NCBI GenBank assembly: GCA_041399065.1
Contig: JAWKTN010000003.1
Location: forward strand, 87,511-151,510
Source of the DNA: Pirellulaceae bacterium
GTDB lineage: Bacteria; Planctomycetota; Planctomycetia; Pirellulales; Pirellulaceae
DNA: 64,000 nt
Reading direction: 5' to 3'
Shown: one piece after another, positions 1 through 64,000 of the stretch
Numbering within the stretch: position 1 is the stretch's first letter
Layout: every line of letters begins with the position of its first letter
Position numbers and translations under genes: made by a program
The notes under the pieces: model-generated
Databases searched by the model: none
Told to the model about the DNA's origin: nothing
The model's input: only the letters and a program-made list of their open reading frames with translations

Positions 1-2010
1 AGGATAGCGATAGCTTCCTTCGTCCACGACGCGTGAATCAGGATCCATCTCCGACTGCTTGCTGGCCCGTTCGAAGAAGAATTCCACCAACGTCGTACCG
101 TGATGTTGCAGGATCATATCGACGATGCTCTTGGGCAGTCGATGTTGGCGCGCCAAGTCGGCCCCGTCCTTCACATGGGCAATAATGATCAAGGTACTCA
201 TTGCGGGCAGCAATGTGTCATGGCGATTGCCGCTGCGACCTTGATTCTCCACGAAGTAACCAGGCTTGAGCATCTTCCCAATGTCGTGAAAATAGGCACC
301 CACGCGGACCAGCAGCCCGTTTCCACCGATGGCATCTGCCGCCGATTCGGCCAGCGACGCGACGTTGATCGAGTGGTTGTACGTTCCCGGTGCCCGCCGC
401 ACAAGCTCCTGCAATAACGGGTGCGAAACGTCCCCCAATTCCAACAGACTTAGCTCCGTCTGCACGTCGAAAATACGTTCAATAAACGGTAGCAAACCGG
501 TCATCAACACGCCCGACAAGGCGGTCCAAAACGCGTACCACATCGCCGTTTCGATCAAACTGCCATCCAGCCAATGACCAGAGACCAGGCCGGCACCGAT
601 CGCCGTCAAGAACACAACCGCCGCGGCGGCGGCCCCCACATAAATCAACTTCGTGCGACTACGGACATCGCGCAACAATAGGATCGTTACCGCCAGCGCC
701 GCCGTAATTACCACAAACTCATTCAACCCCTGCCCGAGCGACAAGACCACTACCAGGGAAACGACCGTGGAAAACAATAACGCTAATTCCCCGTGATGGG
801 CGATCGCCACGATCATGGCAAACAACATCAACGCCACCACTTCCGAATGCCGCACACCGTGTCCGCAGATCCAACTGGCAATCACCGTTACCGCGATCAA
901 CGACTGAAGCATGATCAAACGCCGCAGATCCAATAGCAAGTCATGGTGTCGGTAATAACCATATGCACCACACAAGACGTACAGCGCGATGAACATGCCG
1001 AATCGCGATAGACCAAAGAATAGCAATTGCCATGTTGCCAATTGCGCGACATACGCTTTGTGTTCCGTCTCCAAGAGCGCCTTGGAACGCTCTTGAATCG
1101 GTTCCGCAGCCGCCGCCAACTGGTCTCCAGGCTTGTAGGTATCCATCACCTGCTGCACCTGCTCGGCCGCCAAATCCGCCGCTTCACGCGAGGCGTTGCG
1201 ATTGTACGTCAACGTGATCGGCAACCGGGTGGATAACCAGGCGTAGACCCGGTCGGCAACGATCGGCGGCGTCAGCTGCTTGGACAATTCCTCCTGCAAC
1301 GTTACCGTCGCCTCGGCAATCCGCACCTTGTTGACGTCGACCAAAATAGGATTCGGATCTTCGCTACTGCGTCGAACGCGAATTTCCGTTTGACTCCCCT
1401 CACCGTTTTCAAAGCTGTGCTGGAGCTTTTCCAACAACCCGAAGCGTTCGAGATTAATAAATGCCAACTGAACCGCTTTGTCGAAATCTGCCAAGTCGGG
1501 GTCGTTTCGCAAAGCCTCGCGCAACATTTCGAATTGATGAGCGCGCACGTCGTCCGATAGTGCCTCTTCCCCTTCGCTAGGAGGCACGAAGAATTCGTCC
1601 CACACCTTCCGATCGAATTTCTCATACGACTCAGCCCGCAGCAACTCAAATACGCGACCCTTCAATTTCTCTCGCAATTGTACCAGCAGCTGTGGGTCGT
1701 TTTCGTAGATGCACTGAATGCCGCGACGAGCCTTTTCCTTCTCTTCCGCCGTCGCCTTCTCGTTCTTTACCTTGAATTCCACCCGCGCAACAATGTTTCG
1801 CTGCGGCATCTGCCCAATTCGATAGGGAAAAGGGGGCGACCACGCCGCGGTTGCCAACCACATGACAAGCGACGCGATGACACAGACGCCTAGCCGCAAT
1901 AGCACGTCGCCACGCCGTAACAACAGCAACCCCCGCTCCCATGGGCTGGGGGGCAGTTCCAACTGAGCGACCCGCTCCGATCGTTTTCGCGCTTGATTTC
2001 CCGTAGACAT
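1..2010 (-). CDS. 7TM receptor with intracellular HD/HDIG phosphohydrolase domain; start at 2010, 3' end runs off the window edge
   Basis: Manual minus-strand translation from the ATG at 2008-2010 gives MSTGNQARKRSERVAQLELPPSPWERGLLLLRRGDVLLRLGVCVIASLVMWLATAAW. The same frame has no stop codon down to position 1. A hydrophobic TM-rich stretch lies at about 540-1060. An HDIGK motif (VGAYFHDIGKMLKPGY) is encoded at about 255-303. It sits next to phoH, as in the conserved phoH/7TM-HD/ybeY neighbourhood. It is absent from the ORF track because it is truncated. Confidence 0.8.
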   Translation of the reverse strand, partial: MSTGNQARKRSERVAQLELPPSPWERGLLLLRRGDVLLRLGVCVIASLVMWLATAAWSPPFPYRIGQMPQRNIVARVEFKVKNEKATAEEKEKARRGIQCIYENDPQLLVQLREKLKGRVFELLRAESYEKFDRKVWDEFFVPPSEGEEALSDDVRAHQFEMLREALRNDPDLADFDKAVQLAFINLERFGLLEKLQHSFENGEGSQTEIRVRRSSEDPNPILVDVNKVRIAEATVTLQEELSKQLTPPIVADRVYAWLSTRLPITLTYNRNASREAADLAAEQVQQVMDTYKPGDQLAAAAEPIQERSKALLETEHKAYVAQLATWQLLFFGLSRFGMFIALYVLCGAYGYYRHHDLLLDLRRLIMLQSLIAVTVIASWICGHGVRHSEVVALMLFAMIVAIAHHGELALLFSTVVSLVVVLSLGQGLNEFVVITAALAVTILLLRDVRSRTKLIYVGAAAAAVVFLTAIGAGLVSGHWLDGSLIETAMWYAFWTALSGVLMTGLLPFIERIFDVQTELSLLELGDVSHPLLQELVRRAPGTYNHSINVASLAESAADAIGGNGLLVRVGAYFHDIGKMLKPGYFVENQGRSGNRHDTLLPAMSTLIIIAHVKDGADLARQHRLPKSIVDMILQHHGTTLVEFFFERASKQSEMDPDSRVVDEGSYRYP

Positions 2011-2049
2011 GTCACCTGTTTGTCGTCGCCGTGTCGATTCGACCAGCAA

Positions 2050-3006
2050 CTATTGCTTTCTTCGCTTGGGAGTTTCCTCGTACGCCCGAACAATGTCCTG
2101 CACCAGGCGATGCCGGACGATGTCTGCCTTGGACAAACGAATCTGGCACACACCGTCAATGTCCTTCAAGCGATACAACGCGTCCGCAAATCCGCTGCGC
2201 GTGTGCGATGGCAAATCCACCTGCGTGCTGTCTCCGGCAATCACGATCTTCGATCCACGCCCCATCCGTGTGAGAAACATCTTCATCTGAGCCACCGTCG
2301 TGTTCTGCGCCTCATCAAGAATGATGAACGCCTCATTCAACGTGCGGCCGCGCATGTACGCTAACGGGCAAATCTCGATCGTGTCCCGCTCAATCAATTG
2401 CCGAGCCAGATCGTAATCCATCATCTCATACAACGCATCCAACAGCGGCCGAAGATAGGGATTGATCTTTGCATATAAATCACCCGGCAAGTAACCGAGA
2501 CTCTCGCCCGCCTCGACCGCCGGCCGTACCAAGACAATTTTACGCGTCTCCTGGTTCTTGAATGCCTCCACCGCCATGGCAACCGCCAGATAGGTCTTCC
2601 CCGTCCCCGCCGGTCCAACCGCAAAGATCAGATCGTGCTTGCGTATCGCGTCCACGTACGCAATCTGCCCCGGCGTCCGCGGACGTACCTCCCGCCCTGT
2701 CGCCACGATCTTGATCGGATTCCCAGTCCCCGGCCCCAACTCGTTGCGTCCGGTTACCAATGCCAACACTTGCGCTACCTCGGTGGCATCAACACTCCCC
2801 GTTCGCTCGGCAATTCCCTTCAATTGCTCCAACGCCGCCGTCGCCTGAGTCACCGCGTCCTGGGGCCCCGCGACATAGATCTTGCCGTTGCGGTGGGTGA
2901 TGTCCACACTCAACGTGTCGCGTATTCGATGGAGATGCTGGTCGCGTGCCCCAAACAATGAAAGCGCCGTTTGGGGATTAACCAGCGTGATCGTTGCTTC
3001 GCTCAT
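2050..3006 (-). CDS. phoH: PhoH-like ATPase (PhoH/YbeZ family)
   Basis: 318-aa ORF with Walker A GPAGTGKT and typical PhoH core (LDEAQN..., IVIAGDSTQVDLP). Confidence 0.9.
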   Translation of the reverse strand: MSEATITLVNPQTALSLFGARDQHLHRIRDTLSVDITHRNGKIYVAGPQDAVTQATAALEQLKGIAERTGSVDATEVAQVLALVTGRNELGPGTGNPIKIVATGREVRPRTPGQIAYVDAIRKHDLIFAVGPAGTGKTYLAVAMAVEAFKNQETRKIVLVRPAVEAGESLGYLPGDLYAKINPYLRPLLDALYEMMDYDLARQLIERDTIEICPLAYMRGRTLNEAFIILDEAQNTTVAQMKMFLTRMGRGSKIVIAGDSTQVDLPSHTRSGFADALYRLKDIDGVCQIRLSKADIVRHRLVQDIVRAYEETPKRRKQ

Positions 3007-3279
3007 TCGTGGATGAACGGCCCACTACGTGACCGCTCTGCCAGCCTCCCGGGACCAAGACAAGGATTTTACCGCCCTTAACTATACTATCCCATCACCA
3101 CTAAAGAAAACCGGTGCCCAAGTGAATCGCCGCAAACCATTACCACAAAAGCACTTAGGCAATCCAACGTTTCCCAATAGGCCGTTGGATACGTTCCGAA
3201 TGTGACACGAATCTCGTTTGTAACGCCAATGCGCGCCAACATAAGAACCGGCGATCCTCACCATCGCAATACACCGCCA

Positions 3280-4146
3280 CTAGGGAAGCACTACCGGCTC
3301 GCCGCCGTCACGCGTTGCCATCGGCGAAAGCAATACCGCCCCGCCGGTGACGAACCGAACACTTCCGTCCACAAACGCAACATTCTCTCCACCGGAATGA
3401 CCGCTTCCGGCAAGCGACAACACACTATTGACGTCCAAGTCCTCAGGGCTGGACCAGTGCACTCCCGCCGTCGACGATTCTACGATCAACAGCGTGTTGG
3501 CCATGCCATCGGTGATATCTGCAAGTCGAACGCCATTGGGCCCGGTGAACACAGTTTCCGGTCCGACAATCGCCAAGTAATTGGTCGTGACCGACATGGG
3601 GCTGCCTGTTGGATCGCTCGGACAACGGAACACATTGGGCATCTGTTGGGACGCCGCAAGATTCTGGGGGCTGTCCCATGGTTGCGAGGTATCGAATTGC
3701 GAATAGAGTGCCTGTTCGCCCAAATATGGGAGAATCAATACGCGCCAGCTGACCGTCGGATTGCCGTTCGCGTCCGTCGCGTAAGCGGGGGGAAGCGTAC
3801 CGTTGGCCTGTTCGTAACTCACAATCGCCAACGCGATACCCCGCATGTTGTTCATGCAAGTGGTTCGCCGCGCGGCCTCGCGGGCGGCATTGACGGCTGG
3901 CAACAGCAGCGCGACCAACCCGCACATCAACATCAGTCCGATCACGCCAATCGCGGCCATGATCACGAAGGCAACGGTCATGCCCGCGCCCGACGAGGAT
4001 TTCTGGGAAGGCGGCCGCACTTGTGACGTAAGTTGGGGCACGGTAACCTGCTGCCCACATTCCCGGCACGGCCCGGATTGACCAGCAAACTTGTCTTCCA
4101 CGAGAGTTTTGTGTCCACAATGCGGACATTCAAAGTGAATCGACAT
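3280..4146 (-). CDS. Zinc-ribbon / DUF1559 (H-X9-DG) prepilin-like fusion protein
   Basis: N-terminal CPHCGHK...CRECGQQ zinc ribbon, one TM helix followed by LLLPAVNAAREAARR, and C-terminal HSGGENVAFVDGSVRF (H-X9-DG). Confidence 0.75.
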   Translation of the reverse strand: MSIHFECPHCGHKTLVEDKFAGQSGPCRECGQQVTVPQLTSQVRPPSQKSSSGAGMTVAFVIMAAIGVIGLMLMCGLVALLLPAVNAAREAARRTTCMNNMRGIALAIVSYEQANGTLPPAYATDANGNPTVSWRVLILPYLGEQALYSQFDTSQPWDSPQNLAASQQMPNVFRCPSDPTGSPMSVTTNYLAIVGPETVFTGPNGVRLADITDGMANTLLIVESSTAGVHWSSPEDLDVNSVLSLAGSGHSGGENVAFVDGSVRFVTGGAVLLSPMATRDGGEPVVLP

Positions 4147-4181
4147 GGTTCACCTCACAACGAAATTTTTCGCTGGCTTAT

Positions 4182-6008
4182 TCACGTGGCGATCTTGGCG
4201 AGCAACTGTCCGGTCGCAACCTGATCGCCGACAGACACGACGATCTGTTTCACAGTCCCCGACGAGGGGGCCGATACCGCGACTTCCATTTTCATCGCCT
4301 CAAGTACCAACAACGGGTCACCGGTCTTCACTCGGTCGCCAGGCTTAAGCTTCAATTTCAGTACAACACCAGGCATTTGCGCCGCCACGTCGACCACCGG
4401 TGCGTTCCCGGAATCACCGGGTGATTTTTCAGCGGATCGTTGCGTCGAAGTGCGTGCGTCGCGCTGCATCTCCACATTATACACGTTGCCATCCACCGTG
4501 ACTCGATTGCCCTGGAATGCGAGCCAATACTCTTTTCCGTTGACAACTAGTTTGTATTCGGCCGGTTTGCCGGGATCGGTCGGAGCGGCTGCGGCGGGCT
4601 GCTCCACCTTCTTGCGAATCCCCAACTCACCTTTGCCTTTGAGAAAGGCCAGTCCTTTCTCCTTGCAGGTAGAGACGATGAACACGTTTTCGTCATTGAC
4701 GGGCAGTTTTTCGTGCTCGAGTACCTTGCGTGCCGCATCTACGCCCTTTCGCGGGTCTTCGTCGTTCAATTCGAGAACTGGTCGCGTTGTTGGCTGGAGC
4801 TCCAATTGCTTGGCCGCCAGTTGGACAATTTCCGGATCGGGCGGCACGGGCGTCTTGCCAAAATAGCCCAAGACCATCTTCCCATACGGCTCGGCGATCT
4901 TCTGCCAAGGCCCAAACATCACGTTGTTGAACGCTTGCTGGAAATAGAACTGCGATACGGGCGTTACCGACGTTCCGAAACCACCACGCCGGACAACGTC
5001 GCTCATGGCTTTGATCATGTCGGTATAGCGGTCCATGATGTTATTGTCACGCAGCATTTGCGTGTTTGCCGTCAAGGCACCGCCAGGCATGGGGCTCCAG
5101 GGAATCAGCGGTTCGACCGCCGTGGCTTCGGGGGGAAGAAAATAGTCCTTCATGCAATCCTGAAACACTTCTTCGGCTTGCCGTATTTTGTCAATGTCGA
5201 CGTCCAGCGTGAATTCGCTGCCTCGAAGGGCGTGCCACATCACCAGCACGTCGGGCTGACAAGTACCACCGGAGCATGGGGCAAGTGAGAGATCGATGGC
5301 ATTGGCACCGGCATCGATGGCGGCCTTGTAGGCTAACACACTGACACCGGCGGTTTCGTGCGTGTGGAAGTGAATGTACGCATTGGCGGGCAACATCTTC
5401 CGAGCCCGCTTGATGGTTTCGTACACTTTGGACGGGACGGCGGTCCCGGACGCATCTTTGAAGCAAACTGCATCGAAGGGGATTTCGGCATCGACAATCT
5501 TCTGCAACGTTGCTTCGTAGAAGTCGGCATCGTGAGCCCCTTCGCAGCCCGGCGGTAATTCCATCATCGAGACAACGACCTGATGCTTCAGCCCGGCTTC
5601 GACAATGCATCGCCCGCTGTGGACGAGGTTGTCAACGTCGTTGAGCGCATCGAAATTACGGATAGTGGTCATGCCGTGTTTCTTGAATAGCTCCGCATGC
5701 AACTTGATGATGTCGCTGGATTGCGATTCAAGCCCAACGACATTCACACCGCGAGCCAACGTTTGCAGGTTCGCTTCGGGACCAACCGTTTTGCGGAATT
5801 GGTCCATCATCGCGAAGGCGTCTTCGTTGCAATAGAAATAGAGCGATTGGAAGCGTGCTCCCCCCCCTGCTTCGAAATAGGTAATACCCGCATCTCGTGC
5901 GGCCTCGAGGGCCGGCAGGAAGTCTGGGGTCAATACACGCGCACCGTAGACCGACTGAAAACCGTCACGGAACGCCGTGCACATGAAATCAATTTTCTTT
6001 GCCACCAT
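4182..6008 (-). CDS. oadA: Oxaloacetate decarboxylase alpha subunit / pyruvate carboxylase subunit B-like (carboxyltransferase plus biotinyl domain)
   Basis: 608 aa. TIM-barrel carboxyltransferase region (HFHTHETAGVS) and C-terminal biotin carrier with the EAMKME biotinylation motif. Directly downstream of oadB. Confidence 0.8.
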   Translation of the reverse strand: MVAKKIDFMCTAFRDGFQSVYGARVLTPDFLPALEAARDAGITYFEAGGGARFQSLYFYCNEDAFAMMDQFRKTVGPEANLQTLARGVNVVGLESQSSDIIKLHAELFKKHGMTTIRNFDALNDVDNLVHSGRCIVEAGLKHQVVVSMMELPPGCEGAHDADFYEATLQKIVDAEIPFDAVCFKDASGTAVPSKVYETIKRARKMLPANAYIHFHTHETAGVSVLAYKAAIDAGANAIDLSLAPCSGGTCQPDVLVMWHALRGSEFTLDVDIDKIRQAEEVFQDCMKDYFLPPEATAVEPLIPWSPMPGGALTANTQMLRDNNIMDRYTDMIKAMSDVVRRGGFGTSVTPVSQFYFQQAFNNVMFGPWQKIAEPYGKMVLGYFGKTPVPPDPEIVQLAAKQLELQPTTRPVLELNDEDPRKGVDAARKVLEHEKLPVNDENVFIVSTCKEKGLAFLKGKGELGIRKKVEQPAAAAPTDPGKPAEYKLVVNGKEYWLAFQGNRVTVDGNVYNVEMQRDARTSTQRSAEKSPGDSGNAPVVDVAAQMPGVVLKLKLKPGDRVKTGDPLLVLEAMKMEVAVSAPSSGTVKQIVVSVGDQVATGQLLAKIAT

Positions 6009-6041
6009 CGACCTCGCAAGATCTGCCGTGATATCAAAAGG

Positions 6042-7253
6042 TTACAGCAAAACCGACCAGAGCACGCCGGCGGCGACCGCTGATCCAATCACACCCGCTA
6101 CGTTCGGTGCCATTGCGTGCATCAGCAAGTAATTGTGCGGGTCCTCCGCCTGGCCAATCATCTGGGCGACTCGCGCCGAATCCGGCACGGCGGAAACTCC
6201 CGCAGCACCGATTAAAGGATTGATCTTATCGGTTAAGAACAGATTCATGAACTTGGCGAACAGCACTCCCCCCGCCGTCGCGATCGCGAACGACAACGCC
6301 CCCAAGCCGAAAATCATCAATGACTGGGGACGCAGGAATGTCTGAGCCTGCGTGCTGGCTCCCACCGATACCCCCAGTAGCACCGTCACGATGTCAATCA
6401 TCGCGGTCCGCGCCGTCACCGCTAATCGCTCGGTGACCATGCTTTCCTTCAGCAAGTTCCCGAAGAACAACATCCCAATTAACACCAAGGAACCGGGGGC
6501 AATCAGGGTACAAATCAGAAAGGCAGCCACCGGAAAAATGATCCGCTCACGCTTGGGAACCGTTCGGGGGGCCTTCATCCGAATCAATCGTTCGTCGCGC
6601 GTCGTCAGCAACCGCATGATGGGCGGCTGAATCACTGGTACCAACGCCATGTAAGAATATGCCGCGATGGCGATCGCCCCTAGCAAATCCGGCGCCAGCC
6701 TCGATGCCAAGAATATGGCCGTCGGGCCGTCGGCTCCACCAATGATTCCAATCGCCGCTGCCTGTTCCGGCGTAAATCCAATCGCCATCGCACCCAACAG
6801 CGTCAGGAAGATTCCAATCTGAGCTGCCGCCCCCAACAAGATCAATTTGGGATTCGAGAGCATTGTCGAGAAATCTGTCATCGCTCCAATCCCCAAGAAT
6901 ATCAGCGGAGGAAATATTCCCTGGGATACACCAAAGTAAATGTAACTCAACACACTCCCCGATTGATACGTCACCGTACCATCGCCATTGACCGTCAACC
7001 CGCCCTGATCGTAAACACTGAGTGCCATCGAAGCGATGGTCGGAATATTGCCGATGATCACACCAAACCCTATCGGCAACAACAACAGTGGCTCGTAGTG
7101 CTTCACGATCGCTAAAGCGATGAAGGCGACGCCGATGATAATCATCACCACATTGCCCAACTCCATCTGGGCAAATCCTGTCGTCTTCAAAAACTCGACA
7201 AACATCTGCATGATTGCGGCCCTGTTTCCCTCAATCTCTGCCTGCGTCCTCAT
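6042..7253 (-). CDS. oadB: Na+-translocating decarboxylase beta subunit (OadB/GcdB/MmdB family)
   Basis: 403-aa polytopic membrane protein. The KHYEPLLLLPIGFG motif matches the OadB signature. Confidence 0.85.
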   Translation of the reverse strand: MRTQAEIEGNRAAIMQMFVEFLKTTGFAQMELGNVVMIIIGVAFIALAIVKHYEPLLLLPIGFGVIIGNIPTIASMALSVYDQGGLTVNGDGTVTYQSGSVLSYIYFGVSQGIFPPLIFLGIGAMTDFSTMLSNPKLILLGAAAQIGIFLTLLGAMAIGFTPEQAAAIGIIGGADGPTAIFLASRLAPDLLGAIAIAAYSYMALVPVIQPPIMRLLTTRDERLIRMKAPRTVPKRERIIFPVAAFLICTLIAPGSLVLIGMLFFGNLLKESMVTERLAVTARTAMIDIVTVLLGVSVGASTQAQTFLRPQSLMIFGLGALSFAIATAGGVLFAKFMNLFLTDKINPLIGAAGVSAVPDSARVAQMIGQAEDPHNYLLMHAMAPNVAGVIGSAVAAGVLWSVLL

Positions 7254-7818: not shown

Positions 7819-8607
7819 TCAGATCTGTGAATACTCCAATGGGGTTAGAATGTAGTCGGTGATGTTCGACACGGTGTCCTTATATTGAGGATCGGCACTG
7901 AGCGTCTTCCATCCTGCATCATTGCGGAACCGATCCCACGCGGCATCGCGAGCCACCATGTCGTCAAACACCAGCATGTACGTTAGATTGGGCATCCGAC
8001 TGCCGATGATCGTCTCACCAAAGAAAACGGGCTGCAACCCGGTACGACGAAAAATCTCAATTTCTCCCCCGTCATTGAACATCTCGATCTTCTTCTTGGC
8101 AGCCCGGCTACTGTGGCTCTCATAAACCCGCAATTCAAAGATCCGCTTCTGACCGGCCTCATGCTGCGGCGGCACTTCCACTCGCGGCATCCCGGCAAAC
8201 GCCACCATCAACGAACTCTCCATTCGCACATAATTGGGATGCGATAATTCGGCACCTAGAAAACTGGCCCCATCGCGCAGGAACTGGGCGTCATCGGCCA
8301 ACCGGTCCGCAAACGTCGCGACGGATTCCAGGCTCACATGCGGTATCAAAATGGTGACGCTCGGTTTGCTTGGGCCGTATTGCGTTTGAAAAACGCCAAT
8401 CGGTCCCGTTCCGGCGCGTCTAGCGGCCGGGAGGGCGACACCCTCAAGAAACTCATGAAATGCTTTCCGTCCGTCCCCCGGCAACAACTGGTACTCACGC
8501 CACTCCAAATAGTGACGCGATCCCCCCAACACGCTCCCCTCCCCTTCGGCCGCTGTCGCAGCCGCTAGTGAAATTCCCGTGGTCGCCAAGAAGTCTCTCC
8601 GTTTCAT
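7819..8607 (-). CDS. Tat-signal NIPSNAP-family protein (two NIPSNAP repeats)
   Basis: N-terminal RRDFLATTGISLAAATA twin-arginine signal. The IFELRVYE and LTYMLVFDDMVARDAAWDRFRNDAGW segments look like NIPSNAP domains. Confidence 0.55.
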   Translation of the reverse strand: MKRRDFLATTGISLAAATAAEGEGSVLGGSRHYLEWREYQLLPGDGRKAFHEFLEGVALPAARRAGTGPIGVFQTQYGPSKPSVTILIPHVSLESVATFADRLADDAQFLRDGASFLGAELSHPNYVRMESSLMVAFAGMPRVEVPPQHEAGQKRIFELRVYESHSSRAAKKKIEMFNDGGEIEIFRRTGLQPVFFGETIIGSRMPNLTYMLVFDDMVARDAAWDRFRNDAGWKTLSADPQYKDTVSNITDYILTPLEYSQI

Positions 8608-19618: not shown

Positions 19619-19690
19619 ACGGCTGCGACAGCCGTGGAACTCTGCGGCTGGGACAGCCGTGCGGCTGGGACAGCCGTGGAACTTTTGACC
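19619..19690. repeat. Tandem partial copies of the motif gctgggacagccgtggaac (repeat family also seen at 61085-61215)
   Basis: ggctgcgacagccgtggaactctgcggctgggacagccgtgcggctgggacagccgtggaac. Downstream, at 19760-19790, is a ttggttgggttcgg...gcgattgg segment resembling the 3' part of the 63561-63668 element. Confidence 0.8.
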
Positions 19691-58090: not shown

Positions 58091-58502
58091 CCACTGAAGA
58101 ATAGCGCACGGAAGATTAGGGCATCACTTCATTTCGTGAGTCTCAAGTCTATAAAAATTGGGGGCTTATAACGACTAGGAAAACTCCTGGGAGGCGTTCC
58201 TGAGGGACAATCCCGCCCTGCGAGGGGTTCTGGCCGAGAATGTCGGGATTCGGGTGATCTTCGACGGTTCGCCATGCCGAATTGGGCATGGGAAGCCCTT
58301 TTTCACCATTATTTGCCGCATCTTGAATTAACTAGTTGACTTTACAGGGTCAAGAGTGTCAAATAGGAGCGGTCTCGTTGTAAGGATGAAACATTCGTTA
58401 TTCGCTATTCTTTCCTTCTCGAGACTGGGTGAGGAGGCAAAGCGGCGCGGTGCCGCGGACATGTCTCATTTTTTTATCGTTCTTTTTTTGGGAGGTGTTA
58501 GG

Positions 58503-59609
58503 ATGTCAGTACGTTCGTTGAAGAGACGAGGTTTCACGCTCGTCGAACTGTTGGTGGTGATTGCGATCATCGCCCTGCTGGTCTTGCTCTTGCTGCCAGC
58601 AATCAATGCTGCTCGCGAAGCAGCACGTCGTAATTCATGCATTAATACGGCACGTCAGTTGGGCTTGGCCTGCTTGAACCTGGAAAGTGCCACGCGTACG
58701 TATCCGTTGGCGAGCGACGCGGAATACAGGATTCTGGCAAGTACGTCGAAGGCGATGCAGCCGATCCTCGGCGGCGGCACCAGCAGCCCAAAACCTGGCA
58801 GCATTGCTGCCGGTACGATGGCGGGCTACAGCTGGATCGTGAAGATTCTTCCCTACATGGAAGAACAAAACATCTACGATACGATCTCGCAACAAGGCAA
58901 CAAGTTCCAGGTTGCGGCCTTCGATACCACCATGGTATTGCCAGGCTCGACCAACCATATTTCCAGCCGCATGATCCCTTCGGTTCACTGTGCCAGCTAC
59001 GCCGGTGACGAAGATGCTCAGGGTCGTGAATACCAACGCTACAAGTCCTCGGGCACCAACTACGTAGCCATCCCTGGTACTCACATGGAAAATCAATCCG
59101 GCCTCGGCTTGGCGGTCAAAGAAAACGGTGTGATCATCTCGGCTCGAGCTGGCCGCGGTAAAGGCCTTCGCGTTGGTGACATCTCGGACGGTGGTTCGAA
59201 GACAATCATCATCACCGAAACCAAAGAAGAGAAGTATAACGCCTGGATGGACGGTCAAGCCGCTTGGGTACAAGTCATGCCCTCGAACTCGGCGATCGTT
59301 CCGATCCGGTCACCCAAAGATGGCTTCCTCTCCATGCCCACGACCGTTACGCACATGCTGAACGTTGGTCGTGACCCAGCGAAAGTTAAACAGGGGATCA
59401 CGCAGGTTCCTTACATGACCGCCGCTACCTACCGCTCGGCGGAAGATCGTGACTGGGGCCCCAGTAGCGATCACGCGGGTGGTGTTGTAATCATGACCTT
59501 CGGTGATGTGCATACCAAGGCCGTCGCGGACCAAGTCGATTCGACCGTCCTCTATCGCCTCTGCACACGCAATGGCCGTGAACCTGCAAATGAAGATGAC
59601 ATCAACTAA
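58503..59609 (+). CDS. DUF1559 (H-X9-DG) protein with a prepilin-type N-terminal cleavage/methylation motif
   Basis: Start at the ATG at 58503 (GGGAGGTG upstream). RRGFTLVELLVVIAIIALLVLLLLPAINAAREAARRNSC. C-terminal HAGGVVIMTFGDV. Confidence 0.85.
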   Translation: MSVRSLKRRGFTLVELLVVIAIIALLVLLLLPAINAAREAARRNSCINTARQLGLACLNLESATRTYPLASDAEYRILASTSKAMQPILGGGTSSPKPGSIAAGTMAGYSWIVKILPYMEEQNIYDTISQQGNKFQVAAFDTTMVLPGSTNHISSRMIPSVHCASYAGDEDAQGREYQRYKSSGTNYVAIPGTHMENQSGLGLAVKENGVIISARAGRGKGLRVGDISDGGSKTIIITETKEEKYNAWMDGQAAWVQVMPSNSAIVPIRSPKDGFLSMPTTVTHMLNVGRDPAKVKQGITQVPYMTAATYRSAEDRDWGPSSDHAGGVVIMTFGDVHTKAVADQVDSTVLYRLCTRNGREPANEDDIN

Positions 59610-59851: not shown

Positions 59852-60202
59852 ATGAGTTCGACTGGATCGTCCACCAAACCGCTTGAGATATCCGTGAAGG
59901 CAACGCACCAGATGCTGGTGGAAGGCGCCGAGTTCTGTTTTGTTGATTGCCGCACGCCAGGCGAGTCCGCCACAGCGTCGATTGCCAGTGCAACGCTCAT
60001 CCCCATGGAGACGTTAGCCGACCGATTAGGTGACTTACCTGAGGACAAAGGGCACCATATCGTCGTTCATTGCCACCACGGTGGGCGGAGCCTCCGAGTC
60101 ACGCACTGGCTAAGACAGCAAGGTTACCTCAATTGTCAAAGCATGGCCGGCGGCATCGACGCTTGGTCCGATCAGATAGATCCTACGGTTCCGAAATACT
60201 GA
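59852..60202 (+). CDS. Single-domain rhodanese-like sulfurtransferase
   Basis: 116 aa with active-site loop VVHCHHGGRS. Confidence 0.8.
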   Translation: MSSTGSSTKPLEISVKATHQMLVEGAEFCFVDCRTPGESATASIASATLIPMETLADRLGDLPEDKGHHIVVHCHHGGRSLRVTHWLRQQGYLNCQSMAGGIDAWSDQIDPTVPKY

Positions 60203-60280
60203 CCATGATGTACCCCTCTTGCTGTTATCCGTTGGCGTGACCTATAACTAGGAAATCAATTGACACGGCATGCCGTGTTT

Positions 60281-60365
60281 GGGCTTGTGGCGGAATTGGC
60301 AGACGCGCTAGACTCAGGATCTAGTCCGGGTTAACCGGGTGGAGGTTCGAATCCTCTCAGGCCCA
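60281..60365 (+). tRNA. tRNA-Leu (anticodon CAG)
   Basis: Acceptor stem gggcttg / caggccc (one G-U pair). D-stem gcg/cgc with a long D-loop. Anticodon stem ctaga/tctag with loop ctCAGga. Long variable arm tccgggttaaccgggt. T-arm ggagg-ttcgaat-cctct. Discriminator A. CCA is not encoded. Confidence 0.85.
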
Positions 60366-60500
60366 CTCAACGGCTTCATGCCCAACGTCGCGCCCGATCG
60401 GCGTCAAGATTCGGTGACGCTTGATCTCTCCGCGTCACCGGCCACTACGCTCCTTGAGGCCCAGCTCCTTGAGGCCCATCTGTAACGCTCCGGTGTCACA

Positions 60501-60655
60501 CTTGGCCCCCTCGCCGGCTTGCCCGGCAGGAGCCACAGTTTGGTTGGCTAGCGGTTCCGCGACTTCACCACCCCGGCCGAGGCGGGTGTGACAACGATTG
60601 GCACCATAGCTTTCAAACTGTGGCTCCTGCCGGGCAAGCCGGCGAGGGGGCCAAG
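60501..60655. repeat. 42-bp perfect inverted repeat with a 71-bp spacer
   Basis: Arm 1 (60501-60542) is cttggccccctcgccggcttgcccggcaggagccacagtttg. Arm 2 (60614-60655) is its exact reverse complement. It lies about 135 bp downstream of tRNA-Leu. Confidence 0.95.
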
Positions 60656-61084
60656 GAACGACACAATGTTAGTCTCGTTTTGCCATTCGCGTCAGTATTC
60701 ACTAACTCGCTGCACTTGCCAGAGCCGAACTGCCGCATGTATGTCGTCCCTCCGGGCCTGGCGTGCGGGGGAGCACGCCACCGGCAGAGGTTGTTGCGGC
60801 CCCCACGGCCGAAGGCCTGGAAGGCCTTTGCATCGATAGAACGAACGCCACCTCGAGCTCGCCGTCCCAGGGCCGAAGGCCCGACACAGTTGTGTTACGG
60901 TCCAGCGCCGGGATCGCAGTCATACTCAGAATCCCGGTACTCGTACGCACCCGTCGTCGATCGACAAGGGGTCAACATTCGTTCCATTGCCGCCGCGATC
61001 ATCGAGTACGAGTAGGAGTACCGCTGTGCTGAGTACGAGCACGGCGAAGTGCCACCCGGGTCTTTGACGCCAGCGCGTCGTGCC

Positions 61085-61215
61085 TTGCGGCGTCGCCGCG
61101 ATACGGCTGGGACAGCCGTGGAACTTTGGCAGAACGAATTGGTTCAGTGGGCGGCGAGAAGTAGCTGAGCGGTCAGGGTCGACGTTGCTCGCCGCTCCAC
61201 TGCATCCGCTAGTTC
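61085..61215. repeat. Copy of an ~100-bp imperfect-palindromic repeat family, with a gctgggacagccgtggaac head
   Basis: cggctgggacagccgtggaactttggcagaacgaattGGTTCAGTGGGCGGCGagaag...ctCGCCGCTCCACTGcatccgctagttcgtctcgatcgg. The left arm GGTTCAGTGGGCGGCG is nearly complementary to the right arm CGCCGCTCCACTG. It shares both arms and its flanks with the element at 63561-63668, and its head with 19619-19690. Confidence 0.8.
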
Positions 61216-61303
61216 GTCTCGATCGGCGTGCAAGTGATGTTGCCGACATTGGATGTGGTTGTACAATCTAATGTCGTGGGTTTGAATCTTTAGGAGTTCT
61301 GAC

Positions 61304-61555
61304 ATGATTTCCAATGAGAGCCGAGCAATAGCGGAAGAGGCGAAAAAACTCTATGAGTCTGGTCTTAGGGATGCCCTGGAACGCAACAGTTTTGGAAAAT
61401 ACGTGTCGATCGAGCCGCAATCCGGTGATCATTTTGTCGGTGAGACTTTTGACGATGCAGTTAATGCTGCCATCGACAAATATCCCTCGCGATTGACCCA
61501 CACAATCCGTGTCGGTCACCGGGCAGCATTTCATCTGGGAGTCCTGGAACAGTGA
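61304..61555 (+). CDS. Small hypothetical protein, translationally coupled (ATGA overlap) to the downstream gene; lower GC than the surroundings
   Basis: 83-aa ORF. The locally reduced GC content extends through the partner gene. Its stop overlaps the next start. Confidence 0.5.
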   Translation: MISNESRAIAEEAKKLYESGLRDALERNSFGKYVSIEPQSGDHFVGETFDDAVNAAIDKYPSRLTHTIRVGHRAAFHLGVLEQ

Positions 61556-61914
61556 TTGGATTTGTAGATGAAGAACTAAGGGCACTTCTTCAAGTTCAAG
61601 TGTCCGCCGAGAAGGGCGGCGAAAAGACACCTTTGGACGTCTGGGTTGACACGGCATTCAACGGTGGGCTGGTAATTCCGAGAGACAGAATTGCGGTCCT
61701 GGGATTGTCGAAATCGTCGTCCACGGAGGCCATTCTCGCCGACGGCCAGCTGGTGGAACTGGAAACATTCGCGTGCTATCTCGACTGGTTTGGAACAGAA
61801 TATCGCACACAAGTGATCGCTAATGACGGACAGTTCCCGTTGTTGGGGACAATGTTGCTCGCCAAACGCCGATTGTTGGTGGACTACTCGAAACGGGCGT
61901 TGTCTCTGGAGTAG
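61552..61914 (+). CDS. Putative retropepsin-like (clan AA) aspartic peptidase domain protein
   Basis: 120 aa. VWVDTAFNGGLVIPRDRIAVLGL resembles the D-T/S-G-A catalytic loop context (DTA instead of DTG). Its size fits single-domain bacterial retropepsin-like proteins. Low confidence. Confidence 0.4.
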   Translation: MIGFVDEELRALLQVQVSAEKGGEKTPLDVWVDTAFNGGLVIPRDRIAVLGLSKSSSTEAILADGQLVELETFACYLDWFGTEYRTQVIANDGQFPLLGTMLLAKRRLLVDYSKRALSLE

Positions 61915-61935
61915 TCGCGCGACGAACGGTTGGAT

Positions 61936-62166
61936 TCACCGAGCCGACGGAGTAGAGCCACCATCAAGCTGCGGCTGTTCGTCGGCTTCGGTGCAATCCT
62001 TGGTTCGTCCATACGGTCCCTGATCTGCCAAGTTGATCGTACGCGCACGTAGGGACTTTTGTATTGACGCGTAATACTCACGCAGTCGTTTCGGATCATG
62101 TCCGACTTCGGCGGAGATCTCGTGCCGTACCCTTCGTACTTCTTCGAGTATGGGCGGAGTTGTCAT
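61936..62166 (-). CDS. Small hypothetical protein downstream of the PIN gene (possible antitoxin-like partner)
   Basis: 76 aa, 4 nt downstream of the PIN ORF on the same strand. No family recognised. Confidence 0.35.
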   Translation of the reverse strand: MTTPPILEEVRRVRHEISAEVGHDPKRLREYYASIQKSLRARTINLADQGPYGRTKDCTEADEQPQLDGGSTPSAR

Positions 62167-62170
62167 GTTC

Positions 62171-62641
62171 TTACGCTCCCCCGAGCAATTCCATTGGAGT
62201 AACTAGTTCTGGAGTGAACAATCCAAGTATACCATTGATCCGGCGAATTTGCCCAAACTTGTTCGCATTGGCTAAGTGCTCGCAGATCCAAGTTACGAGG
62301 AAGTCACAACGATGGTAGGACGCTAATGCCAAATGCAACGCGTCCCCGAAGGGATCGGCCGGCATTAGTTTGTTTGCTAAGTAGGCCTCCACGATTTCAA
62401 AGACGGGATCGTTCAATTCCAACATCTCAATCGAGTTCAACATTTCCAAGCAATCGTCGCGGCCGGGAAAGTCGCCGCGGCGAAGTTCGTCCAATACGGC
62501 GGCGCTGGAGACGATACGATCGGAAGTGATTGCAACGTCGTACCATCTTCGCGTCCAGTCTCGGCGTGCCACCATCTCGGGCTCGGCGCGTACCTCGTGG
62601 TAGAAACTCGGAATCGTCGTCTCAATGTAGTAGATTGCCAT
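62171..62641 (-). CDS. PIN-domain protein (VapC-like putative toxin)
   Basis: N-terminal IYYIETTI. Acidic residues are appropriately spaced. The C-terminal DPFGDALHLALASYHRCDFLVTWICEHLAN matches the PIN consensus D..DA.IAA.A....lvT.d..F. Confidence 0.55.
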   Translation of the reverse strand: MAIYYIETTIPSFYHEVRAEPEMVARRDWTRRWYDVAITSDRIVSSAAVLDELRRGDFPGRDDCLEMLNSIEMLELNDPVFEIVEAYLANKLMPADPFGDALHLALASYHRCDFLVTWICEHLANANKFGQIRRINGILGLFTPELVTPMELLGGA

Positions 62642-62708
62642 CCATTACTCTTAGAACAAACGGTTGCGATAACGGGGGGCGAGCGGAAGGCCTCGACTTC
62701 AAGACCGA

Positions 62709-62948
62709 CTACGCCGAGCCCTCCCGTTCATCCCATGGTTCTGTCGCGCGTTGTCTATCGGGAAAGGGGTCTGTAGTGGAGAGTTCACCGGTCGGTGTTT
62801 CGTAATACAGTCGGCCGTTAATCGAGTACACATTCGGGACACCCAACCGCCTATTCGCTTCTTGCGACTTCGCAACACCGCGTTTTCCAATGCGCACGAT
62901 TTCGTCGATCGCGGCATAGGTTTCAGCAGATAACTGAGATCGGATCAT
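62709..62948 (-). CDS. Small hypothetical protein overlapping (4 nt) the upstream P-loop kinase gene
   Basis: 79-aa ORF with an ATGA-type overlap with 62945..63526. Confidence 0.35.
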   Translation of the reverse strand: MIRSQLSAETYAAIDEIVRIGKRGVAKSQEANRRLGVPNVYSINGRLYYETPTGELSTTDPFPDRQRATEPWDEREGSA

Positions 62949-63526
62949 GGCAAATCGCCAACTAGTGCTAAGAAGGCTGCAAACAGGTCGGAGTCACGGA
63001 CGGCGGTTTGATCGCCTGCTCCGACAGCAATGTCTTCTAGGGTCATCGCTCCATTGTAGAGTAAAACCCAACTATCGGCCAGTTCACGATAGGTCGACCA
63101 AAAGTTGCGAATGGACCTTGTAAATCGACGTCGGATGTCGGACTCAGGCACGTCGTGGCCACCCGCTCGGACACGTTCGGCGACACGAGCCACACAAACA
63201 CCGGCTGATTCGACAAACAGGAAAGCAATACTGACCGTGTAACCGGTGTCGCGAGCCGAAGCGAGAAAGTTCCGCATGGTCAGTCCAGAAAGCGTGGACT
63301 CGCAAACGAATGATAGCTTCTGTGATATGTTCGCTTCGATTGCGCGAATGAACTGACGTGCTGCGGCGATCTCGGCGGCAGCAGGATTCAGTGGATTCAG
63401 TGTCGCTGCAATGGCATCCGCACTGACGTATGGTAAGGCCAGTTCATCGGCGTATTCGATCGCAAGAGTTGTCTTGCCCGATCCGTTTGGGCCACCGACG
63501 ATGAGGAGCTGAGGTCGTTCTTCCAA
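62945..63526 (-). CDS. P-loop NTPase of the zeta-toxin / AAA_33 kinase-like family
   Basis: Walker A LLIVGGPNGSGKTTLA near the N-terminus. 193 aa. Its size and motif placement resemble zeta-toxin-like phosphotransferases. Confidence 0.55.
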   Translation of the reverse strand: MEERPQLLIVGGPNGSGKTTLAIEYADELALPYVSADAIAATLNPLNPAAAEIAAARQFIRAIEANISQKLSFVCESTLSGLTMRNFLASARDTGYTVSIAFLFVESAGVCVARVAERVRAGGHDVPESDIRRRFTRSIRNFWSTYRELADSWVLLYNGAMTLEDIAVGAGDQTAVRDSDLFAAFLALVGDLP

Positions 63527-63560
63527 TCAATACTCCTTCGCTCGATCTGAGTCAGTGAAG

Positions 63561-63668
63561 CGACAGAACGCTACGGTTCAGTGGGCGGCGTGAGTTGACT
63601 TTCCATCCGAACACGCCCGGTTACGCCGCTCCACTCAAACCGTTGGTTCGGCGACTGCGATCGGACAT
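63561..63668. repeat. Second copy of the imperfect-palindromic repeat family
   Basis: cagaacgctacGGTTCAGTGGGCGGCGtgagttgactttccatccgaacacgcccggttaCGCCGCTCCACTCaaaccgttggttcggcgactgcgatcgg. Compare 61085-61215. Confidence 0.8.
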
Positions 63669-63675
63669 CCTCCAT

Positions 63676-63960
63676 TCACGCGATTTCCAGCTCACTGCCC
63701 AGATCTTCGATGTTTTTACCCATGGCCTCGGCATATAGCACGTCTGGACAAAAATCGACTCCATTCGGCCAGACTATCGTGCCAGCTTCGTGGTCGACCC
63801 GAACTTGGGCAAAAACGTTGAGGTCTTGGAGAGCCGTAAAGACGCCCCCGCGTCCAGCTATCCGGCTGCGGAAGTCGAGATTCGCGACAGTGCCATCAGT
63901 AAAACTGATTTGAAGTTCGTAATCGCTGATGTGGCGTACGCCGGTCACTCGCGGAAACAT
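63676..63960 (-). CDS. DUF2442-family small protein (usually paired with DUF4160 in TA-like modules)
   Basis: 94 aa. ISDYELQISFTDGTVANLDF...VDHEAGTIVWPNGVDFCPDVLY fits DUF2442. The partner would lie beyond the window end. Confidence 0.55.
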   Translation of the reverse strand: MFPRVTGVRHISDYELQISFTDGTVANLDFRSRIAGRGGVFTALQDLNVFAQVRVDHEAGTIVWPNGVDFCPDVLYAEAMGKNIEDLGSELEIA

Positions 63961-64000
63961 TCAATACACTCCTAGTCCAAGGGGTCAATTCTCTGAGGTG

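What the first reader, a model, noticed from the sequence alone, without database searches (positions are those of the whole stretch)
60281..63960. tRNA-Leu-adjacent low-GC islet of coupled small gene pairs (PIN, zeta-like kinase, DUF2442, retropepsin-like) separated by conserved palindromic repeats
Immediately 3' of tRNA-Leu(CAG) the sequence changes character. There is about 900 bp of non-coding, repeat- and hairpin-rich DNA. Then come at least four small units on both strands, several with 4-nt ATGA overlaps typical of toxin-antitoxin or cassette genes: PIN plus small partner, zeta/AAA_33-like kinase plus small partner, DUF2442, and a retropepsin-like pair. GC is locally reduced. Two copies of an ~100-bp element with complementary arms (GGTTCAGTGGGCGGCG ... 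CGCCGCTCCACTG) and a variable centre flank the cassettes. That organisation is reminiscent of attC sites in sedentary chromosomal integrons, whose cassettes are also TA-rich. It could equally be a tRNA-integrated genomic island. No integrase is present inside the window.
Basis: partly seen in the sequence, partly recalled or inferred. Interest (0 to 1): 0.65.

Follow-up and report, generated by a model that had tools for sequence, protein, structure and literature searches.

The report
Planctomycete integron cassette array end
The islet next to tRNA-Leu is the far end of an integron-type gene-cassette array in a planctomycete chromosome: four toxin-antitoxin-like gene pairs, each followed by its own attC recombination site. 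This is a real but already well-known kind of element.

Summary
There are four repeats, not two: 61126-61226, 61918-62017, 62652-62753 and 63560-63660. All lie on one strand, one after each gene pair, and none occurs in the other 60 kb. They have the attC architecture:
- an invariant AAC-G...GTT core
- a short spacer
- a covarying stem
- two bulged bases (T and C) 6 bp apart on one arm
- a variable loop

Across 127 distinct family members, 91% of stem positions pair and 22 of 26 pairs show compensatory changes. All 26 contigs with at least two sites have them co-oriented, with a median spacing of 722 nt.

In contig L114, nine such sites abut a true integron integrase (TIGR02249, 427.6 bits against a cutoff of 265), next to pgk and a planctomycete DUF1598 gene. 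That geometry places any integrase for this window beyond base 64000.

Metagenome contigs of the same organism carry different neighbours around the DUF4160/DUF2442 cassette. Each switch falls at an R' box.

There is no integrase in the window and no tRNA 3'-end duplication. Whether this is a complete integron or an orphan array (CALIN) remains open. Planctomycete integrons and their attC type are already described, so interest is modest.

The parts
60281..60366 (+). tRNA-Leu(CAG). This is the chromosomal neighbour of the array, not part of it.
   Evidence: ARAGORN. Rfam tRNA 55.7 bits. No direct repeat of its 3' end within 64772 nt of window plus L001 extension.
60367..61125 (.). Non-coding flank beyond the last attC, GC 0.632. 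Its right part (60776-61043) looks cassette-derived but has no attC of its own. It contains a perfect 42-nt inverted repeat at 60501-60655, a (GAGTAC)n motif at 61001-61043 and a host hairpin at 61104-61120.
   Evidence: No model hit here even at E<=10. 60776-60888 is 76% identical to a cassette upstream of DUF4160 in L001/L003, and 61001-61043 recurs in many arrays. The hairpin CGGCTGGGACAGCCGTG also occurs three times at 19620-19678. Contigs of the same organism end at 60495-60555.
61126..61226 (+). attC site 1, the last in the array. The core runs from CAGAAC at 61130 to GTTCGT at 61216. The + strand is the inferred recombining bottom strand. The cassette boundary lies between 61134 and 61135.
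   Evidence: Model R1 gives 84.5 bits on + against 22.3 on -. The fold has two bulged bases on the 3' arm. The L003 junction breakpoint falls within CAGAACG.
61304..61914 (+). Cassette 61135-61926. It holds an 83-aa ORF (61304-61555) and a 120-aa clan-AA aspartic-protease-like ORF (61552-61914) that overlap by GTGA. The pair is inverted relative to the array.
   Evidence: TIGR03698 scores 49.1 bits, below its cutoff of 57.35. No Pfam hit. Found only in one other contig, from sample SRR2043628.
61918..62017 (+). attC site 2. The core runs from ACGAAC at 61922 to GTTCGT at 62008. The boundary lies between 61926 and 61927. It overlaps the 3' end of the 76-aa ORF.
   Evidence: R1 gives 52 bits, E 1.6e-11, and the site was not in the training set. 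DNA fold -24.4 kcal/mol, z = -4.7, with two bulges on the 3' arm.
61936..62641 (-). Cassette 61927-62660. It holds a PIN-domain protein (62171-62641) followed by a 76-aa ORF (61936-62166).
   Evidence: Pfam PIN 24.1 bits against a cutoff of 23.6. A homologous PIN (34% identity, E 3e-25) plus a small downstream ORF forms a cassette in the IntI-linked array of L098.
62652..62753 (+). attC site 3, the weakest. The core runs from ACAAAC at 62656 to GTTCTG at 62743. The boundary lies between 62660 and 62661.
   Evidence: R1 gives 26.8 bits, E about 1e-4. It keeps AACG, the T bulge and GTTCTG, but its fold is not better than shuffles (z = -0.45).
62709..63526 (-). Cassette 62661-63568. It holds a zeta-toxin/AAA_33-like P-loop kinase (62945-63526) and a 79-aa ORF (62709-62948) that overlap by ATGA.
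   Evidence: Pfam AAA_33 48.3 bits and Zeta_toxin 39.8 bits. No meaningful PADLOC hit.
63560..63660 (+). attC site 4. The core runs from CAGAAC at 63564 to GTTCGG at 63651. The boundary lies between 63568 and 63569.
   Evidence: R1 gives 101.6 bits on + against 26.2 on -. The site is 93% identical, loop included, to sites in two other MAG species.
63676..64000 (-). Cassette from 63569 to about 64280, running off the window. It holds DUF2442 (63676-63960), preceded by DUF4160 just beyond the window end, with a further attC upstream.
   Evidence: Pfam DUF2442 56.3 bits and DUF4160 78.6 bits. L001 extends the window by 772 nt and has another site at L001 402-503.

Best explanation
Bases 61126 to 64000 and beyond are the integrase-distal end of an integron-type cassette array in a planctomycete chromosome. 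The array reads on the - strand (the top strand) as four units, each followed by its own ~90-nt attC site:
- DUF4160-DUF2442
- zeta-like kinase plus a 79-aa ORF
- PIN plus a 76-aa ORF
- an inverted pair made of an 83-aa ORF and a clan-AA protease-like ORF

By analogy with studied integrons, the + strand of each attC folds into a hairpin. That hairpin has an R box (AAC/GTT), an unpaired spacer, an L stem with two flipped-out bases and a variable loop.

An integron integrase would bind the folded strand and cut in the R' box. It would excise cassettes as circles through attC x attC recombination and re-insert them at attI. The cassettes here look like toxin-antitoxin pairs. Such pairs carry their own promoters and are thought to stabilise large arrays against deletion.

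Shown here: the site architecture, covariation, polarity, one site per cassette, restriction to the islet, a true IntI beside the same site family elsewhere, and cassette-neighbour swaps at R' boxes.

Inferred: that recombination is active in this genome, that an integrase lies beyond base 64000 or elsewhere, and that the gene pairs are functional toxin-antitoxin modules.
For: 1. The sites are confined to the islet. A covariance model built from six copies finds four sites in the window, all on the + strand and all between 61126 and 63660. Nothing above 14 bits occurs in the other 60 kb. Two of the four sites were not in the training set.

2. The sites have the attC architecture. Of 130 sites:
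- AAC is present in 125-129.
- The G after AAC is present in 124.
- The bulged T is present in 127.
- The bulged C, 6 bp away on the same arm, is present in 114.
- GTT is present in 128.
On the 127 distinct sequences, 91.1% of stem cells pair and 22 of 26 pairs have compensatory changes. The covariation score is 0.495, against 0.128 for shuffles and at most 0.053 for slid partners. These features match the attC definition in PMC2727003: extrahelical bases on the R''-L'' arm 6-8 nt apart, a G after the AAC of R', an unpaired central spacer and a variable terminal structure.

3. The sites are polar. The same site scores 101.6 against 26.2 bits, and 84.5 against 22.3 bits, on the two strands.

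4. Array geometry fits. All 26 loci with at least two sites have them on one strand. Median spacing is 722 nt. The longest ORF lies on the inferred top strand in 58 of 73 intervals.

5. A true integrase sits beside the same site family.
- In L114, nine co-oriented sites are followed by a divergent ORF that scores 427.6 bits on TIGR02249 integron integrase (cutoff 265) and is 47% identical to IntI1.
- That ORF is flanked by pgk and a DUF1598 gene.
- L098 has a frameshifted IntI in the same geometry, with a homologous PIN cassette.

6. Cassette content varies, and the switches fall at R' boxes. The DUF2442 cassette is joined to the terminal flank in L003, with the breakpoint inside CAGAACG. Its upstream neighbour differs between L001/L003 and L002/L004/L005, with the switch at GTTCGG.

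7. The host is a planctomycete. A DUF1559/N_methyl gene lies at 58356-59609, and the related MAGs are labelled Planctomycetales, Planctomycetaceae or Pirellulaceae. Integrons and a phylum-specific attC model are published for Planctomycetes (PMC8352920; PMC4889954).
Against: - No integrase, attI or Pc promoter lies in the 64-kb window. The sequence beyond 64000 could be extended by only 772 nt.
- Site 3 is weak: 26.8 bits, with a fold no better than shuffles.
- The first bulged base is C rather than the usual G.
- After GTT, the R' box follows GTT[C/A][T/G][G/C] rather than a strict GTTRRRY.
- IntegronFinder's general attC model could not be run.
- The junction polymorphisms are between diverged contigs. 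For the L003 flank the identity is 85%. Homologous exchange within the shared 7-nt box cannot be formally excluded.
- No experiment shows recombination or toxicity.
Confidence: 0.9

Rival explanations
1. Orphan array (CALIN). The four or more cassettes form a cluster of attC sites with no integrase in cis. It would be either a relic of a lost or rearranged integron, or a store mobilised in trans by an IntI encoded elsewhere. This is a sub-case of the main explanation rather than a different kind of element.
For: No integrase lies in the 64 kb to the left of the array. In L008, only two sites sit between a giant protein gene and alaS, with no integrase in the 8 kb held. CALINs outnumber complete integrons in genomes, 279 against 164 (PMC4889954).
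Against: The array's polarity places any integrase to the right. There the array continues past the window end, with another site at L001 402-503. L114 and L098 show that this site family does occur in complete integrons.
Confidence: 0.3
2. A tRNA-Leu-integrated genomic island carrying toxin-antitoxin modules, inserted by a phage-type integrase and bounded by a duplication of the tRNA 3' end.
For: The islet starts next to a tRNA gene. The cassettes have lower GC (0.534 against 0.571). Their content varies between strains.
Against: No integrase lies next to the tRNA. No repeat of 12 nt or more from the tRNA 3' end occurs in the next 4.4 kb. Related arrays end beside unrelated genes: alaS in L008 and an SBBP-repeat gene in L006. 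Variation is cassette by cassette at attC boxes, not all-or-none.
Confidence: 0.03
3. The hairpins are REP/BIME-like dispersed palindromes or transcription terminators that happen to lie between genes, with no role in recombination.
For: They are GC-rich imperfect palindromes downstream of genes. A different small hairpin of the host (CGGCTGGGACAGCCGTG) is dispersed, at 19620-19678 and 61104.
Against: No copies occur in the other 60 kb. Orientation stays fixed even where the gene pair is inverted. There is no T-run. The AAC-G/GTT boxes and two one-sided bulges are invariant. A bona fide IntI is adjacent in L114. Junction switches fall at the R' box.
Confidence: 0.03

Closest known systems
Sedentary chromosomal integrons, e.g. 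the Vibrio cholerae superintegron with its VCR attC sites
   Same: Co-oriented ORF-attC units of about 0.7-0.9 kb. The attC sites are homogeneous within a lineage. Toxin-antitoxin cassettes are frequent, and some cassettes are inverted. The integrase is divergent at one end, as seen in L114. Cassette order varies between strains.
   Different: The host is a planctomycete. The attC is ~90-100 nt, with C rather than G as the L-box bulged base and GTT[C/A][T/G][G/C] rather than GTTRRRY. No integrase, attI or Pc is visible in this window.
CALIN, a cluster of attC sites lacking an integron integrase (Cury et al. 2016, PMC4889954)
   Same: At least two attC sites less than 4 kb apart, with no intI in the sequence available.
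   Different: The array runs off the window on the side where the integrase is expected, so the absence of intI is not established.
Planctomycetes-type attC sites modelled by Ghaly et al. 2021 (PMC8352920)
   Same: The same phylum, and the same idea of a taxon-conserved attC sequence and structure in chromosomal arrays.
   Different: Identity of this family with theirs is likely but untested.
Type II toxin-antitoxin modules (VapC/PIN, zeta toxin, DUF4160/DUF2442 pairs)
   Same: Two small adjacent or overlapping genes, one with a toxin-family domain.
   Different: In the PIN and zeta-like pairs the putative toxin gene comes first, and the small partners match no family. Toxicity and neutralisation are untested.

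Membership tests
integron attC site | Imperfect inverted repeat whose outer boxes carry the conserved core, R'' ...AAC and R' GTT... | tested here: met
   AAC is present in 125-129 of 130 sites and GTT in 128 of 130. All four window sites have both. Bases after GTT follow GTT[C/A][T/G][G/C], so they fit RRRY only in part.
integron attC site | [quoted passage not shown] | tested here: met
   G is present in 124 of 130 sites and in all four window sites.
integron attC site | Two or three extrahelical bases on one arm only (R''-L''), 6-8 nt apart, giving the site its polarity | tested here: met
   A bulged T (127 of 130) and a bulged C (114 of 130) lie on the 3' arm of the + strand, separated by a 6-bp helix. 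Strand-specific scores are 101.6 against 26.2 bits. The usual first bulged base is G; here it is C.
integron attC site | Unpaired central spacer between the R and L boxes, a variable terminal structure, and a total length of about 57-141 nt | tested here: met
   A 4-5 nt spacer is left mostly unpaired in the folds. The central 27-45 nt are variable. Cores are 87-88 nt.
integron attC site | Stem conserved as structure rather than sequence (covariation) | tested here: met
   22 of 26 pairs have compensatory changes. 91.1% of cells are paired. 0 of 500 shuffles reach the observed values. Slid controls score at most 0.053 against 0.495. Caveat: the alignment was fitted to the model.
integron attC site | Recognised by IntegronFinder's general attC covariance model, and recombined by IntI on the bottom strand | not testable with these tools
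The only indirect support is cassette-junction switches at R' boxes.
complete integron | intI (a tyrosine recombinase with the IntI-specific domain) adjacent and divergent to the array | tested here: inconclusive
   None is in the window, but the array leaves the window on the expected side. The feature is met in the related locus L114 (TIGR02249 427.6 bits, cutoff 265). It is present as a frameshifted gene in L098.
complete integron | attI site and Pc promoter next to intI | not tested
   They are not in the window. attI is unknown for this lineage.
complete integron / CALIN | Co-oriented attC sites less than 4 kb apart, each closing a cassette-sized unit | tested here: met
   Four sites lie on one strand. 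Cassettes measure 792, 734 and 908 nt, and about 712 nt for the one running off the window, and every ORF lies inside its cassette boundaries. All 26 multi-site loci are co-oriented.
tRNA-integrated genomic island | Integrase gene beside the tRNA and a direct repeat of the tRNA 3' end at the far border | tested here: not met
   No recombinase is in the window. No repeat of 12 nt or more occurs within window plus 772 nt. The far border itself is not available.
REP/BIME-type dispersed palindromes | Many copies scattered through intergenic regions genome-wide | tested here: not met
   No hits above 14 bits in the other 60 kb of the window, scanned on both strands with filters off.
type II toxin-antitoxin module | Toxin-family domain plus an adjacent small partner, with the partner neutralising toxicity | tested here: inconclusive
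   Domain scores: PIN 24.1 bits (cutoff 23.6), Zeta_toxin 39.8, DUF2442 56.3, DUF4160 78.6. The small partners match no family. Function is untested.

The most novel reading that the evidence does not exclude
The array may be an integrase-less outpost (CALIN) lying beside tRNA-Leu that is still being reshuffled in natural populations by an IntI encoded elsewhere. Three junction switches at R' boxes are seen among contigs that are at least 98.5% identical in the shared cassette. Its all-toxin-antitoxin, toxin-first cassettes would act as a deletion lock for the distal end.
Probability: 0.2. Interest if true: 0.4.

Novelty: new member of a known kind. Interest (0 to 1): 0.3.

Why it matters
This gives a clean, structure-verified example of a chromosomal integron array outside the Proteobacteria. 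It comes with a usable covariance model, defined cassette boundaries, a matching IntI (L114) and natural cassette-order variants. That helps with annotating planctomycete genomes, where such arrays break short-read assemblies. It also helps with mining cassettes and with choosing attC/IntI pairs for recombination assays. It does not change what is known about how integrons work.

Tried and rejected
- **Rfam scan of 60000-64000.** It found only the tRNA. The mir-28 and mir-602 hits are artefacts of the 42-nt inverted repeat.
- **Genome-collection scan for the repeat.** It found three other MAGs but not the source genome, so the window could not be extended that way.
- **Exact-protein look-ups.** I tried DUF2442, the rhodanese, the protease-like ORF and PIN. 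They returned only short contigs that break in or next to the array. The best extension was 772 nt.
- **The L007 tyrosine recombinase.** It first looked like an integrase in the right place. It scores only 151 bits on TIGR02249 (cutoff 265) and is paired with an IS91-family transposase. I rejected it as IntI.
- **A decayed four-helix-bundle gene in 60367-61125.** tblastn found none.
- **An attC remnant between the tRNA and 61126.** None was found, even at E<=10.
- **PADLOC.** No defence-system match for any cassette protein.
- **Duplication of the tRNA 3' end.** None found.
- **The perfect inverted repeat arms.** They occur in no other locus except the same organism's contig L130.
- **Not attempted.** I did not search the large protein databases for this organism's IntI. 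Hits cannot be tied to a genome, and contigs break at the array.

Full report
**The observation**

ARAGORN finds a single tRNA in the window, tRNA-Leu(CAG) at 60281-60366. Downstream lie 937 nt without any family-supported ORF, then four small gene units.

| Unit | Coordinates and strand | Family evidence |
|---|---|---|
| 83-aa ORF plus 120-aa protease-like ORF | 61304-61914 (+) | TIGR03698 clan-AA aspartic protease, 49 bits, below cutoff 57 |
| PIN plus 76-aa ORF | 62171-62641 and 61936-62166 (-) | PIN 24.1 bits, cutoff 23.6 |
| Zeta_toxin/AAA_33 kinase plus 79-aa ORF | 62945-63526 and 62709-62948 (-) | AAA_33 48.3 bits, Zeta_toxin 39.8 bits |
| DUF2442 | 63676-63960 (-) | DUF2442 56.3 bits |

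The DUF4160 partner of DUF2442 begins just beyond the window end. This is shown by a 100%-identical MAG contig that extends the window by 772 nt (L001).

The 16-mer GGTTCAGTGGGCGGCG is exact at 61141 and 63575 and occurs nowhere else.

GC in the cassettes is 0.534, against 0.571 for the rest of the window. That is in the lowest 2% of equal-sized windows. The non-coding stretch 60367-61125 is GC-richer, at 0.632.

**The repeat is a family, and there are four copies**

An exact-pattern scan of species-representative genomes found the 5' arm in three planctomycete MAGs, which are L006, L007 and L008. I built covariance model R1 from six copies. I then scanned the whole window on both strands with filters off.

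| Site | Coordinates | R1 score (bits) |
|---|---|---|
| 1 | 61126-61226 | 84.5 |
| 2 | 61918-62017 | 52.0 |
| 3 | 62652-62753 | 26.8 |
| 4 | 63560-63660 | 101.6 |

All four sites lie on the + strand. Nothing else in the 64 kb exceeds 14 bits. Sites 2 and 3 were not in the training set.

Each gene pair is therefore closed by exactly one site. Every ORF lies inside the unit bounded by two consecutive sites. The element is not a genome-wide REP.

**Architecture**

Folding and the aligned family give the following layout on the + strand:
- an outer box ...AAC followed by G
- a 4-5 nt spacer
- a 5-bp helix, then a 6-bp helix, then a GC-rich helix
- a variable 27-45 nt centre
- the return arm, with a bulged T and, 6 bp further out, a bulged C
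- a 3-4 nt spacer
- GTT...

Among 130 sites, AAC is present in 125-129, the following G in 124, the bulged T in 127, the bulged C in 114 and GTT in 128.

On the 127 distinct sequences, 91.1% of stem cells pair and 22 of 26 pairs show compensatory changes. The covariation score is 0.495. Shuffles give 0.128 (0 of 500 reach the observed value) and slid partners give at most 0.053. One caveat applies, because the alignment was fitted to the model.

The element is polar. The same site scores 101.6 against 26.2 bits on its two strands.

These are the features that Bouvier et al. use to define attC sites (PMC2727003):
- R and L boxes
- an unpaired central spacer
- two or three extrahelical bases on the R''-L'' arm, 6-8 nt apart
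- a G after the AAC of R'
- a variable terminal structure

By that definition the + strand is the recombining bottom strand, and the cassette top strand is the - strand. Three of the four gene pairs lie on the - strand.

**Array geometry elsewhere**

A metagenome scan with an L-box pattern returned 120 contigs. R1 found 130 strong sites in 48 sources.
- All 26 sources with at least two sites have every site on one strand.
- Start-to-start spacing has a median of 722 nt and an interquartile range of 593-1122 nt.
- The longest ORF lies on the inferred top strand in 58 of 73 intervals.

**Link to an integrase**

L114 carries nine co-oriented sites (127 to 5058), then a divergent ORF at 5687-7030.
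- That ORF scores 427.6 bits on TIGR02249 integron integrase (cutoff 265) over the full model.
- It is 47% identical to IntI1 as I recalled that sequence from memory.
- It is flanked by pgk and a DUF1598 gene, so this is a chromosomal planctomycete integron.

The integrase sits exactly where the bulge-based polarity predicts.

L098 has a frameshifted IntI in the mirror-image geometry. Among its cassettes is a PIN protein 34% identical to the window's, followed by a small ORF and an attC.

Applying the same geometry to the window places any integrase beyond base 64000. The array does continue there, with another site at L001 402-503. No tyrosine recombinase is detectable in the window itself.

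**Cassette mobility in nature**

Contigs from other metagenomes share the DUF4160/DUF2442 cassette at 98.5% identity or better. Their neighbours differ.
- In L003 its attC is joined directly to a sequence 85% identical to the flank left of site 1. The three cassettes in between are skipped. The breakpoint falls inside CAGAACG.
- Upstream, L001 and L003 carry one attC and cassette, while L002, L004 and L005 carry another. The sequences become identical at the GTTCGG R' box.
- The protease and PIN cassettes were found in only one other sample.

Switches at R' boxes are what integrase-mediated attC x attC exchange would leave. Homologous exchange within these short shared boxes cannot be strictly excluded.

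**The tRNA side**

No repeat of the tRNA 3' end exists in the next 4.4 kb. Related arrays end next to unrelated genes. The tRNA adjacency therefore looks incidental.

The 759 nt between the tRNA and site 1 have no attC. They do contain several notable pieces:
- a 114-nt stretch 76% identical to another cassette of the same array
- a (GAGTAC)n motif that recurs in many arrays
- a small hairpin also found in three tandem copies at 19620-19678
- a perfect 42-nt inverted repeat at which contigs of this organism break

I read the right part of this stretch as decayed cassette DNA and the rest as chromosomal flank. This is the least certain part of the picture.

**Comparison with what is known**

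Integrons have been reported in Planctomycetes (PMC2426708; PMC4889954). A Planctomycetes-specific attC covariance model has been published (PMC8352920). Toxin-antitoxin cassettes in sedentary chromosomal integrons are well documented (for example PMC11023631 and bioRxiv 10.1101/2022.08.03.502626, listed).

This is therefore a new member of a known kind. Small departures are C rather than G as the first bulged base, a looser R' consensus, and toxin-first gene order in two pairs. Whether the locus is a complete integron or a CALIN cannot be decided from the window.

**Verdict**

I give it 0.9 confidence as an integron-type cassette array. The tRNA-island and REP-like rivals get about 0.03 each. 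Interest is about 0.3.

Noticed in passing
window 60501-60542 and 60614-60655: A perfect 42-nt inverted repeat with a 71-nt loop lies 135 nt downstream of tRNA-Leu (fold -78.5 kcal/mol, z = -13). Metagenome contigs of the same organism end at 60495-60555, right at it. It was not found in any other locus. Its nature is unknown: a MITE-like insertion, an invertible segment or a strong hairpin are all possible.
   Followed up: partly
window 60449-60478: Exact 15-nt tandem duplication, GCTCCTTGAGGCCCA x2, in the non-coding stretch after the tRNA.
   Followed up: no
window 61104-61120 and 19620-19678: The small hairpin CGGCTGGGACAGCCGTG(GAACTTT) sits directly beside the last attC. It also occurs as three tandem copies in an intergenic region 41 kb away (4 matches against 0.03 expected). 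It looks like a dispersed REP- or terminator-like hairpin of the host. It is also present in the L003 flank.
   Followed up: partly
window 61001-61043; also L114 1495-1537, 1922-1963, 3047-3088; L006 5917-5958; L007 6599-6640: A (GAGYAC)n-CGCTGYGCT-GAGYACGAG motif recurs in many arrays. In L006 and L007 a second copy forms the 3' end of a four-helix-bundle (23S rRNA intervening-sequence-protein-like) cassette gene, so the two copies bracket that gene. In L114 an oppositely oriented pair (1495-1537 and 1922-1963) brackets a gene that was not identified. The arrangement recalls the stems around rRNA intervening sequences.
   Followed up: partly
L007 4272-6352 and L112 2106-2951: An IS91-family transposase (NF033538, 350 bits) lies inside a cassette array in L007, paired with a Xer-like tyrosine recombinase that is not IntI (151 bits against a cutoff of 265). 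The unit lies about 100 nt upstream of an attC whose R'' end reads CACTTGAAC. L112 holds a 52%-identical recombinase near a partial attC; no transposase was checked there. IS91 elements are known (from my own knowledge) to target CTTG/GTTC, so these attC boxes may be natural targets.
   Followed up: partly
window 63560-63660; L006 5341-5441; L007 7123-7223; L008 4676-4776: The same attC, 93% identical with the loop included, occurs in different MAG species. In the window and L008 it follows DUF2442. In L006 and L007 it follows a four-helix-bundle gene. So near-identical attCs are attached to unrelated genes across species.
   Followed up: partly
L008 3977-4776: Only two attC sites (one weak) lie here, wedged between a 1283-aa protein gene and alaS, with no integrase in the 8 kb held. 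This is a minimal CALIN-like array carrying a DUF2442 cassette.
   Followed up: no
L098 7376-8331: The integron integrase next to this array is split into two reading frames near 7935. This is either a pseudogene or a sequencing error.
   Followed up: no
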